From: Amoebidium appalachense
Lineage: Eukaryota > Protista > Ichthyosporea
Direction of reading: 5' to 3'
DNA length: 64,000 nucleotides
Assembly (NCBI GenBank): GCA_963693365.1
Contig: CAVNZM010000003.1
Location: 9,065,019-9,129,018 of the forward strand
Under the pieces are notes generated by a model. That model made no database searches. It saw only the letters and a list, made by a program, of their open reading frames with translations, and was not told the origin of the DNA. The position numbers were made by a program, and so were the translations under genes. Position 1 is the stretch's first letter. Each line of letters starts with the position of its first letter. Shown here piece after piece: positions 31,501-34,500 of the stretch.

Positions 31501-34500
31501 GGGGGGGGGGGGGGGGGGGAGTGGGGATATTTCCAAAGACCTCTGATGTCTGCACTCTGGGCATGCGTGCCGCAGGGGTGCCCGGTCGTGGATAGAACTG
31601 GGATATATTTACAATCGCAAATTCATAGTCACCAATCAGCTGCAGGGTCTCCTCAAACTCCTCCGCCGTCTCTGAAGAAAGGGGAAAAGGGGACGTTGAG
31701 ATTTCAAATTGCACTGGCCGAATTTACGGTCCCCAAGAAGACACATACAATGAAATCAGGAGCCTTCCACACGTTGTTCATATGTAAATACTTGAATACC
31801 CATGAATCAACCAGGGGCTGGGGGGCGCGGGGGGGGGGGGGGGGGGGGGGGGGGGGGGGGGGGGGGGGGGGAGGGAGGGGGTTGAGGGGGTGCCGGAGGT
31901 AATAAAGAGGACGAGGAAGGGTTGGGGGGGGTGGGGGGTGGAGAGAGAGCTCAAATATGTGCCCTCTACATACACACAGCGCTGTAACGGCAATGTCATG
32001 GTTTCAAGTTCCAAATTCCCCTTTACACCCCCCTCCCCCCCCCACCCCCACCTCCCCCCCCCCCCCCTCCCCTCCCCCCCCCCCCCCACCCCCTCCTCCC
32101 CCCAACAAACACAAGCACGAGCCCTATCTGCCGGCAGCTATACGGCACACACACACTCATATCGTGCACTTCCCAGCCTCGACGTCGAGCAGATCTTGCA
32201 GGCCCCCCGGGGGGGGGGGGGGGGGGGGGTTTGAATGCGGAACACGGTACGAAGTACGCATACACGATGGACACATGCAAAGGCAAAAATTCAAGTATGC
32301 AACATCAGCCATGCACACAGTATGTGTCATAAGCAGAGCCCATCCTCAGGGAGGGCCCAAGTCATCAATTGCGTCTGAGTTTCGACCCCTTAGCCCGCGT
32401 ATATACGACTCTCCAACTCAGACAGCAGCATCAACTGAACTTGGGAGGGTCAACCCGTGTTGATCAAAGACGAGCAGGGTTGCTTATGCAAGCAAGGTGA
32501 GCAAAACGGTGAATATGTTTGTGCAAACTAATGCAGTGCAGCGGAAAATGCATATGTGCTTACAGATGCACGACACAGAGCAACCATGCCCGGTTGCATG
32601 GACGTAAAGCGGTCTCCACACAGTGGTCTGTCCTGAAAGGACACCTTTGAAAGAAGACTGGGGGGGTTTGAATGCGGAACACGGTACGAAGTACGCATAC
32701 ACGAAGGACACATTCAAAGGCAAACATTCAAGTATGCAACATCAGCCATGTGCACAGTATGCGTCATAAGCAGAGCCCATCCTCACGGAGGGCCCAAGTC
32801 GGGGGGGGGGGAGGGCAGGGGGGCTGGAGAAGAAAGGAAGTTGACGGGGAGAGGGGGGGGAAGGGGGGGGGGGGGAGGGGGGGGGGGGAGGAGGGGAGGG
32901 AGGAGGGGCTGATTACCTGTAGGGAAGCCACAAATAACATCTGTAGCAATTGTGATACCCTGGACCTGCGGGAGAAGAGGGGAAAAAAAAAAGGGGGGGG
33001 GGGGGGGGGGGGGGGGGGGGAGAGCGTGTTAAATCAGCAAGCACGCACGTGCTCTCGCATTAGAGCCAAGTTACCAAGAACATACACACAACAAATCGTT
33101 CTGTGTGTGGGTGTGCGTGTGTGTTTGGGGGGAAGGGGTGTGTGTGTGTGTGGGGGGGGGGGGGGGGGGGGGGGGACGCACACACATCCTTTACTATATG
33201 ACGTGTCGTTCAAGGAACGAAGCCAGAAAAAATTCCTCCCTGCCCCATTACTCATTGAAGACACCAGGAGTGAGGGAGGGAGGGGGGAGGAGGGATGGAG
33301 GGGGGGAGGGGGAGGGGGAGTTGGGAGGGAGAGAGCGAGACGGTGGGGTGTTGAAATTGTTACAGGGTACGATGTATGCTTTCTTGATGGACAATACGAA
33401 GAAAACACATGAAGAGTATGAATTATAAAGCAGAGCCTATCCTTAGGCAAAGGGGAAGAAAGAAGAAGGGGAGGTCGGAAGGAGAAACGGAGGGAGAGTA
33501 GACAACGGGGGGGATGGGGGGGAAGGTTGGGGGGGGGGGGGGGGATGAATGCATTAGAGGGTTTGAAAAATGGTAGAAAAACTAAAGGAAAAAATATAAA
33601 CCGTTACAAAAATGAAAAAATGAAAAACCCGGAAATCAAACCATAAAATGGATATATATATATATATATATACACATATAAACGTGCAGGCAGAAGACAC
33701 TTCAACAAAGCCCATCATCAGGGTGGGGGAGGGGGGGGGGGAGTGTGCGTGCACACACACACACACACACACATACCCTCTCTCTCAGATGGTCCACCAC
33801 ATGTCTAAACTCTGCACACGTGTACTCTCTCTTCATTACATCAAGCACACGGTCTGACGCTGCCTGCACTGTACCCTTGCCCACTTTGTCAGAAAATGCA
33901 AACTAGGCACTGGTATTGTTGCCGTTTGCTGGCCTAGCCACGTCTCGTGTTATCTAACCAATCGAAGCTTGTAAAAACTAACAATAGAATCCCAGACAGG
34001 AAAATAAAGAAGGAACATAAAAATGGGGAAAATGCGACTGGCCGGCAGGCTGGCGGAGGGTGGGTGAGGGGGGGGTGAGGGGGGGGGGGGGGGGGGGGGG
34101 GGGGGGAGGAGGGGGCTAAAAATGTGTTACAGCTTGAAGTACACATTTACGATACGCAACACGATGCAAACCCTGCAAAACGTGGAGAAGGCTTGGGGGG
34201 GGGGGGGGGGAGGGGGGGGGGGGGGGGGGGGATTGTTACCTGGGACGTGCAGGAATTTGTAGATGCGGGGATGCTGAAAGATTTCAGCCATTGCCTGAGA
34301 GAGAAAAAAGTGCAAACAGTGAATATCCGTTGGGCAAATACCAAGTATACAGATATGCAAGTAGAAAAGAGCAAACATAAACGCGCCGCGTACATACATA
34401 TATACATTATAATAAGAGAAGCGAGAAATAATTGGAAAGAGCCTTCAGAGAGATGTTGGTATATAAAGGTCTGTGTGTGCATGTGCCTGTGTGTGTGTGT

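What the first reader, a model, noticed from the sequence alone, without database searches (positions are those of the whole stretch)
32335..32445. Hammerhead ribozyme core in a non-canonical (anti-cyclic) strand order
Seen on the minus strand: the three core strands occur as stemIII-GUU-stemI, then stemII-GAAAC-stemIII, then stemI-CUGAGGA-stemII. Stem III is GUCUGAGU/ACUCAGAC, extendable through UCAGUUG/CAAUUGA and CCCAAGU/ACUUGGG; stem I is GGAG(A)GUC/GGC(C)CUCC; stem II is GGCUCU/GGGGUC after a UG insertion. Diverged copies keep the core: CUGAGGA vs CUGAUGA differ only at the free N7 position, GAAAC is retained, stem I changes GGAG/CUCC to GGG/CCC (1.2 kb copy), stem II becomes AGAGUC/GGCUCU, and stem III has different but still complementary sequence. 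Established: types I, II and III are cyclic permutations of CUGANGA, GAAA, NUH. Inference: the order NUH, GAAA, CUGANGA makes all three stems cross, so the CUGANGA strand must dock into the loop of the stem-III hairpin. Standard hammerhead descriptors would miss this, and I know of no described natural example.
Basis: partly seen in the sequence, partly recalled or inferred. Interest (0 to 1): 0.92.

Follow-up and report, generated by a model that had tools for sequence, protein, structure and literature searches.

The report
Split-core scrambled hammerhead in protist retroelement
A high-copy repeat in what is likely a single-celled relative of animals carries all the parts of a hammerhead self-cutting RNA in a scrambled order, likely with the catalytic core split by an extra helix junction, and it would likely cut and circularise the repeat's RNA for copying; cutting is untested.

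Summary
The three hammerhead strands are real, in the order cleavage site, GAAA, CUGAGGA (1 hit in the window, 0 of 200 shuffles). That order is not new: it is type SGC, shown to cleave in vitro by Eckert et al. 2023 (PMC10085705), but reported only from metatranscriptomes. The core is then split between A9 and G10.1 by a four-way junction, as I also read by eye in three Naiad consensi of Craig et al. 2021. The motif sits in a 437-nt non-coding, 5'-truncating, C-run-flanked repeat with thousands of contigs, in a probable ichthyosporean: most likely a non-autonomous Penelope-type retrozyme. Two hairpin loops keep changing palindromes, which hints at a dimer. This scan noted the split-core design before in animal genomes (unchecked notes, which gave me the lead); I found no such note outside animals. 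Cleavage, expression and the mobilising element are not shown.

The parts
32223..32659 (-). One full 437-nt non-coding unit of the repeat (about 452 nt in a variant with a 15-nt insertion), ending CAUUCAAA plus a C run
   Evidence: insertion variant
32660..32800 (-). 141-nt partial copy of the unit's 3' end, head to tail upstream (pseudo-LTR-like), 95% identical; its core reads GUGAGGA
32481..32488 (-). 5' strand of outer closing helix P4 (pairs 32335-32328, 8 bp)
   Evidence: pair probability 0.97; no covariation seen
32477..32479 (-). CCC, inner P4, predicted partner of GGG 32341-32339 just after A9
   Evidence: recovered in constrained fold; inferred
32453..32475 (-). Hairpin P0, loop UGAUC (UGGCC in subfamily B); its 5' strand can instead mask the core (32475-32465/32348-32338)
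   Evidence: C.C mismatch restored in relatives (row 32459); B form read by eye loose ends
32446..32451 (-). Strand X (GACCCU), likely 5' strand of stem II, supplying G10.1
32438..32445 (-). 5' strand of rod-base helix P5 (pairs 32363-32356)
   Evidence: different complementary sequences in B and C (by eye)
32416..32424 (-). Stem III 5' strand, ending G16.2 U16.1
32414..32415 (-). Predicted cleavage site, U17|G1.1
   Evidence: by analogy with hammerheads; not tested
32411..32414 (-). Stem I 5' strand GGAG
   Evidence: A-U to G-C change at pair 3 in the 1.2 kb copy
32392..32410 (-). Linker hairpin AGUC/GGCU with a self-complementary loop, followed by AA
   Evidence: AACC/GGUU with other palindromes in B
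32380..32389 (-). G block: stem II 3' strand GGGGUC, then G12 A13 A14 A15.1
32372..32380 (-). Stem III 3' strand
32356..32363 (-). P5 3' strand
32343..32353 (-). C block: stem I 3' strand CUCC and core C3-A9 (CUGAGGA)
   Evidence: no variant row at any core base in 4 runs at 5%
32328..32342 (-).
1010..1262 (-). Decayed 5'-truncated subfamily B copy with S, G and C blocks
38060..38250 (-). 5'-truncated subfamily B copy, G and C blocks intact
17890..18037 (-). 5'-truncated subfamily C copy, G and C blocks intact
38653..38814 (-). 5'-truncated subfamily A copy, C block only
33565..33724 (-). 5'-truncated subfamily B copy starting at the core
31541..32965 (-). Two consecutive exons (32965-32918, 31672-31541) of a MiaB/MtaB-like methylthiotransferase gene; the element lies in the intron, in sense
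   Evidence: TIGR01578 profile positions 280-298 (E 0.006) and 297-338 (E 1e-9)

Best explanation
The 437-nt repeat carries an intact hammerhead core in scrambled strand order, likely folds as a split-core ribozyme whose stem II comes from an upstream strand, and would likely cut after U32415 so that unit-length RNA can circularise and be copied into C runs by the enzymes of a likely Penelope-type partner. Shown: the blocks, their order, the alternative helices, the high copy number, the 5' truncation, the C-run flanks and the head-to-tail junction. Inferred fold: the transcript forms a rod (P5, an internal loop or bulge, stem III). Its apical loop holds the stem I strand, a small hairpin and the stem II strand. 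Its basal loop, closed by P5 and P4, holds strand X and the CUCC-CUGAGGA strand. The two loops dock to make stems I and II, and P4 and P0 sit as extra arms between A9 and G10.1. In the ground state the P0 5' strand masks the core, which would keep circles uncut. Inferred life cycle: cutting of tandem or read-through transcripts gives monomers, ligation gives circles, and more-than-unit reverse transcription primed at a G/C tract gives 'partial + full' insertions and many 5'-truncated copies.
For: Motif beyond chance: 0 of 200 shuffles. Selection on the core: no variant row at any core base in 4 runs, one with 5190 laid contigs. Of 12 majority or near-majority differences between the decayed 1.2 kb copy and its relatives at 1156-1227 (mapped by hand), 3 restore core bases (A14, U4, G8), 4 restore predicted pairs (P5 1185; stem III 1199, 1200; linker hairpin 1220), 2 swap one palindrome for another, 3 are at unpaired or untestable places, and 0 break a predicted pair. 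Stem II: GACCCU/GGGGUC (A), GACUC/GAGUC (B), GACCUA/UAGGUC (C), with two-sided changes at pairs 4, 5 and 6 (B and C strands read by eye); chance of 5 or more Watson-Crick pairs at that fixed place is 0.9% for A alone. Two-sided changes also in stem III (C-G vs A-U at 16.6), stem I (pair 3) and P5. With the docking strands held single, ViennaRNA returns P4, P0, P5, stem III and the linker hairpin unprompted (-44.7; ground state -55.9; docking duplexes -8.7 and -3.7). The same X-S-G-C wiring, where the tail cannot form stem II, is readable in three Naiad consensi of PMC8557442. Element traits: 6 of 6 copies ending CAUUCAA(A) are followed by at least 5 C in 6 nt, background 7.5%; four contigs of run X20 close a loop across the junction and the cut site; Chlamys elements prefer (C)n and have non-autonomous head-to-tail forms.
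Against: No cleavage data, and no hammerhead with A9 and G10.1 on different strands was found in print, so activity of such a core is unproven. A partner with 5 or more Watson-Crick pairs somewhere in 60 nt arises in 31% of shuffles. In subfamily A, 3 of 6 variant places in the fold break terminal pairs (32446 last X pair, 32410 linker hairpin, 32467 P0) and 32352 would break stem I pair 3 with no matching row at 32412. A C.A mismatch at stem III pair 3 of the 1.2 kb copy is not visibly repaired. No covariation seen for P4. None of the 12 window copies starts at the predicted cut. No autonomous partner found; the window's reverse transcriptase is an unlinked RVT_1. With all helices formed, docking within one molecule looks strained in B and C (rough length estimate).
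Confidence: 0.55

Rival explanations
1. Plain type SGC: the tail GGCUCU forms stem II after a UG insertion, and the X/G helix (8 bp, reaching into G12 and A13) is an off-switch that keeps monomers uncut.
For: Tail pairing keeps 6, 6, 6 and 4 pairs in the four copies. HRIMA-1 also has U after A9, and its search pattern is CUGAUGAUG. UUGACCCU/GGGGUCGA covers G12 and A13. Type SGC is proven active.
Against: Tail invariant while its partner varies; 2 pairs broken in C; weaker duplex (-5.1 vs -8.7); needs a 2-nt insertion; in the Naiad examples the tail cannot make stem II.
Confidence: 0.2
2. The fold is conserved but does not cut unaided: it is a hammerhead-derived scaffold recognised by the reverse transcriptase or endonuclease, or needs a protein to cut.
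For: Ground state masks the core (p 0.64); no copy starts at the cut; PLE hammerheads show low activity in vitro (PMC4209133 passages).
Against: Every catalytic base is kept and restored in relatives, which binding alone would hardly require.
Confidence: 0.13
3. The core strand is supplied by the upstream repeat copy (order C...S-G, a long-range type CSG), so only tandem transcripts cut.
For: The partial repeat begins 14 nt before its core; head-to-tail junctions recur in contigs of three runs; it avoids the fold-back strain.
Against: 5' ends of copies vary widely; this upstream core has C3G; P4 ties the tail to the same unit's upstream strand.
Confidence: 0.1
4. Chance arrangement in a repeat.
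For: The descriptor was written after seeing the locus.
Against: 0 of 200 shuffles; core conservation and covariation across subfamilies.
Confidence: 0.02

Closest known systems
Type-SGC hammerhead ribozymes (HRIMA-1 and SGC variants; Eckert et al. 2023, PMC10085705; main text parts 1-6 of 8, supplement parts 1 and 8 of 42 and passages)
   Same: Block order cleavage site, GAAA, CUGAnGA; crossing stems; full core; U after A9; a further helix joining the distal ends of stems I and II; the same geometric puzzle of stem III joined closely to that helix.
   Different: Stem II likely uses an upstream strand, breaking the paper's rule that CUGAnGA is followed directly by stem II; S-G linker is 21 nt with a hairpin (descriptor 0-8 nt); about 160 nt long (longest there 104 nt); in a eukaryote's genomic repeat, whereas all SGC examples came from metatranscriptomes.
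Naiad/Chlamys Penelope-like elements (Craig et al. 2021, PMC8557442; passages, supplement part 1 and passages)
   Same: Partial-tandem pseudo-LTR layout, 5' truncation, (C)n preference as in Chlamys, non-autonomous head-to-tail forms; X-S-G-C motif readable by eye at the 3' end of three Naiad consensi.
   Different: No ORF here and no linked RT or GIY-YIG seen; the paper reports no canonical hammerhead in Naiads and does not mention ichthyosporeans; stem III here is longer (9-13 vs 5-6 bp), with an extra linker hairpin and palindromic loops.
Non-LTR retrozymes and PLE minimal hammerheads (PMC4209133 passages; bioRxiv 10.64898/2026.07.22.740005 part 1 of 5; PMC7229834 search listing only)
   Same: Small non-coding hammerhead-bearing unit, tandem layout, proposed circular RNA template, palindromes linked to dimer action.
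   Different: Those carry type I hammerheads with a palindromic, unstable helix III; here stem III is long and the palindromes cap two other hairpins; circular RNA not shown here.

Membership tests
Hammerhead ribozyme | Core C3-U4-G5-A6-N7-G8-A9, G12-A13-A14, A15.1-U16.1, H17 | tested here: met
   no core variants at 5% in 4 runs
Hammerhead ribozyme | Stems I, II and III flank the core, with covariation | tested here: met
   two-sided changes in I, III and the X-based II; partly unphased and by eye
Hammerhead ribozyme | A9 joined to G10.1 directly or by 1-2 nt | tested here: inconclusive
Hammerhead ribozyme | Site-specific self-cleavage after H17 | not testable with these tools
   needs in vitro assay; contigs cannot show ends
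Hammerhead types I/II/III | Circularly permuted block order | tested here: not met
   order S-G-C; no Rfam hit
Type-SGC hammerhead | Block order S-G-C with crossing stems | tested here: met
   against the definition
Type-SGC hammerhead | Published descriptor: S-G linker 0-8 nt, CUGAUGA(U)G, stem II from the C block | tested here: not met
   descriptor read and compared by hand: linker 21 nt, N7 = G, only 2 pairs with a 1-nt insertion
Non-autonomous Penelope-like element / non-LTR retrozyme | Partial tandem repeat, 5' truncation, no coding capacity | tested here: met
   no ORF of 120 aa or more lies within the unit
Non-autonomous Penelope-like element / non-LTR retrozyme | 3' end shared with an autonomous PLE encoding RT and GIY-YIG | not testable with these tools
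   no genome held; none in the window
Non-autonomous Penelope-like element / non-LTR retrozyme | Unit-length linear and circular RNA in cells | tested here: inconclusive
   X20 contigs close a loop, but the run is only guessed to be RNA and tandem DNA gives the same loop

The most novel reading that the evidence does not exclude
An obligate-dimer, split-core hammerhead: two transcripts meet through self-complementary hairpin loops (GUAUAUAC, CGCGCG, CGUACG, CACGUG on the linker hairpin; GAUC, GGCC on P0) and each lends its basal loop (strand X and CUGAnGA) to the apical loop of the other, so that cutting happens only in RNA dimers. This would be a new hammerhead architecture, shared from a unicellular holozoan to animal Naiads, and the ribozyme that this whole Penelope clade was thought to lack.
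Probability: 0.25. Interest if true: 0.9.

Novelty: new variant of a known kind. Interest (0 to 1): 0.74.

Why it matters
It would put a non-circularly permuted hammerhead in a eukaryote's own genome, whereas type SGC was reported only from metatranscriptomes of unknown hosts, and would show that the core tolerates a whole junction between A9 and G10.1, against the block rule used to enumerate permutations. It offers a direct test of why Naiad/Chlamys Penelope elements seemed to lack hammerheads, and extends the design beyond animals, which would date it to before animals or imply transfer. The RNA is short and can be assayed in days. Thousands of copies, one in sense inside a host intron, could also affect host pre-mRNA.

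Tried and rejected
No genome is held, so no genome-wide alignment, R-scape test or 5'-end census was possible. Rfam: nothing relevant. Pattern scans for more copies: viral contigs 2 and 0 hits, metagenome contigs 4, prokaryote genomes 0; all 6 hits lie in gene-like sequence without the stems and were rejected as chance. Sequencing runs: no RNA holder listed; X14 and X20 are only guessed to be RNA. Run X16 gave 0 laid contigs on the subfamily B copy (no proof of absence). The whole unit folds no better than shuffles (z -0.52; local z -0.91), as expected if the key helices are pseudoknots, so no support was drawn from it. I first proposed interaction helices GGAGGCA/UGUCUYC and GAAC/GUUC (B), GGGC/GCUU (A), and a tail-GGGU helix; dropped because they have no consistent counterpart across subfamilies or compete with P5 and P0. 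A kink-turn in the rod fits A and the octopus Naiads by eye but not B or C, so it is left open. The 7 differences between the two repeats do not tell one more-than-unit insertion from two insertions into the same C run. The intronless methyltransferase gave no lineage signal. Dropped from the count of 12 copies, uninspected: weak nhmmer hits at 26851-27114 (+), 38630-38525 and 19629-19569. Not in print by searches: 'type-SGC' appears only in Eckert et al.; no paper joins hammerhead, Penelope and ichthyosporeans; none listed describes a split core. Weinberg et al. 2015 (PMC4509812), cited in PMC13725137 for hammerheads with extra helices, was not read and may bear on the novelty of the junction; so may unseen supplement parts and bioRxiv supplements. 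Passages of PMC10162972, PMC7936874, PMC6765202, PMC3088659 and PMC6154101 showed no A9/G10.1 junction.

Full report
Observation. On the minus strand the cleavage-site strand (U16.1 32416, U17 32415), the GAAA strand (G12 32383) and the CUGAGGA strand (C3 32349) occur in that order. A descriptor for core plus stems I-III in this order finds only this locus in the window and nothing in 200 local dinucleotide shuffles, under four settings (the descriptor was written after seeing the locus). Rfam has no match. Some supporting claims fail: the 1.2 kb copy has three core changes, the 5' repeat has C3G, and the 38.2 and 18.0 kb copies lack the cleavage-site strand.

The order is known. Eckert et al. 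2023 (PMC10085705; main text parts 1-6 of 8) call it type SGC: 583 predicted sequences, five cleaving in vitro at 0.007-0.13 per min, none in the genome of a known organism. Their descriptor allows an S-G linker of 0-8 nt and needs CUGAUGA(U)G followed by stem II; this locus, with a 21-nt linker, would be missed. 'Type-SGC' occurs in no other paper of the library.

Setting. The motif lies in a 437-nt non-coding unit preceded by a 141-nt, 95% identical copy of its own 3' end. I counted 12 copies in the window, all on the minus strand; all but this one are 5'-truncated at various points, and none starts at the predicted cut (three weak hits not inspected). All 6 that end in CAUUCAA(A) are followed by at least 5 C in 6 nt, against 7.5% background; tail and target cannot be told apart. 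Twenty public runs of six coded organisms hold part of it, with 5190 contigs laid in X5. In X20 four contigs close a loop of about 452 nt across both the head-to-tail junction and the cut site; the run is only guessed to be RNA, and tandem DNA would look the same. A prohibitin-2 exon places the host near ichthyosporeans (one exon, best hits only; reading the labels Ihof and CFRG as Ichthyophonus and Creolimax is recalled). This copy sits in sense in an intron of a MiaB/MtaB-like gene. Partial tandems, (C)n preference and non-autonomous forms are traits of Chlamys/Naiad Penelope-like elements, which were reported to lack canonical hammerheads although some keep a core or 'half core' (PMC8557442). 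No partner element was found.

The core is under selection. No core base shows a variant at 5% in four runs. Laying contigs on the decayed 1.2 kb copy (97, 96, 99 and 0 contigs in four runs) gave 12 majority or near-majority differences within 1156-1227. Three restore the core (A14: 611/929, 171/292, 157/263 of depth; U4: 232/249, 77/92, 187/187; G8: 965/1024, 787/810, 544/605). Four restore predicted pairs, two exchange CGUACG for CGCGCG, three are uninformative and none breaks a predicted pair.

Stem II. After earlier scan notes on animal Naiads mentioned an extra strand and a split core, I looked upstream and found GACCCU at 32451-32446 (-8.7 vs -5.1 kcal/mol). Loose ends give GACUC in subfamily B (14-20 contigs per run, agreement 0.58-0.71; 2 contigs at 1.0) and GACCUA in C (one contig each in X20 and X11), each matching its own G strand, with two-sided changes at three pairs. 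These strands come from different contigs and were paired by eye; for C the two X20 contigs have similar depth (273, 229). The same upstream strand, rod and block order can be read in three Naiad consensi in the supplement of PMC8557442 (passages only, not a screen), where the tail cannot form stem II. If X supplies G10.1, A9 and G10.1 are on different strands. Holding the docking strands single, ViennaRNA returns the arms that would fill the gap: P4 (CCC/GGG plus an 8-bp helix with probability 0.97) and hairpin P0, whose one mismatch is repaired in nearly all relatives (row 32459). With stem II and the core this is a four-way junction. Against: the tail keeps at least 4 pairs with the G strand in every copy; three subfamily A variants break terminal pairs (32446, 32410, 32467); 32352 is unexplained; P4 shows no covariation; a 5-pair partner somewhere in 60 nt is common by chance (31%), though rare at the fixed place (0.9%).

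Mechanism. Unconstrained, the region is a rod whose core is masked by the P0 5' strand (-55.9; probability 0.64). The docking-ready scaffold is -44.7, and the two docking duplexes add about -12 before loop penalties, so the states may be close; the repaired P0 would favour the active one. I infer docking of the apical loop on the basal loop, cutting at U17|G1.1, ligation to circles that refold into the masked state, and more-than-unit reverse transcription, the model proposed for PLE hammerheads (PMC4209133 passages). Geometry is the open point. By a rough estimate (2.8 A per pair, recalled), the arm from hinge through stem III, core and stem II is about 18 layers in A against 15-16 pairs in the returning arm, which is feasible; in B and C it is about 22 against 8 pairs plus a 4-nt strand, which is short. 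Either P5 opens or two molecules swap loops. The linker loop holds a palindrome in four versions (GUAUAUAC; CGUACG; CGCGCG; CACGUG, the last from 3 contigs) and the P0 loop in two (GAUC, GGCC). A random 10-11-mer holds a palindromic hexamer in 7-9% of cases and a 5-mer a tetramer in 11%; the versions are related, so these do not multiply. Predicted self-duplexes are -12.0, -8.6 and -7.0. This is a hint of dimer action, not proof.

Verdict. A real, conserved hammerhead-type RNA; it works like type SGC but fails that family's descriptor and likely has a split core. New variant of a known kind. My ten literature searches found no description of the split core or of such a motif in an ichthyosporean; one possibly relevant paper (Weinberg 2015) was not read. 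This scan has unchecked notes of the design in animal genomes and none for this genome, its relatives, palindromic loops or non-animal hosts. Split-core ribozyme 0.55, plain SGC 0.20, non-cutting scaffold 0.13, long-range CSG 0.10, chance 0.02. Interest 0.74.

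Noticed in passing
window 54145-57342 +: Frameshifted non-LTR-type retrotransposon; RVT_1 at 55730-56395 (E 5e-23). No similarity of its 3' end to the hammerhead repeat.
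   Followed up: partly
window 25107-25937 +: Intronless class I SAM methyltransferase (276 aa) in an intron-rich genome; best relatives about 40% identical, mostly bacterial with a few fungal; possible horizontal transfer.
   Followed up: partly
window 19095-22607 -: Prohibitin-2 exons; one 58-aa exon is 93% identical to an unnamed eukaryote protein, 88% to Sphaeroforma arctica and to a protein labelled Ihof, 86% to one labelled CFRG, at most 84% to listed animals and fungi.
   Followed up: yes
window, whole: C runs of 8 or more are twice as common on the minus strand (158 vs 79), the sense strand of the two intron-bearing host genes identified; all 12 repeat copies counted are on that strand.
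   Followed up: partly
window 32762/32325, 32752-32751/32315-32314: Differences between the repeats and among relatives include CpG to CpA/TpG changes, suggesting methylation of the element.
   Followed up: no
window 50783-52159 + and 57785-58435 +: Open frames of 458 and 216 codons without a Pfam match above cut-off.
   Followed up: no
PMC8557442 supplement, near part 42: The 3' end of a Chlamys consensus has a GACC/GGUC hairpin followed by GAAAC but no nearby CUGAnGA in the passage shown; perhaps another split-core form.
   Followed up: no
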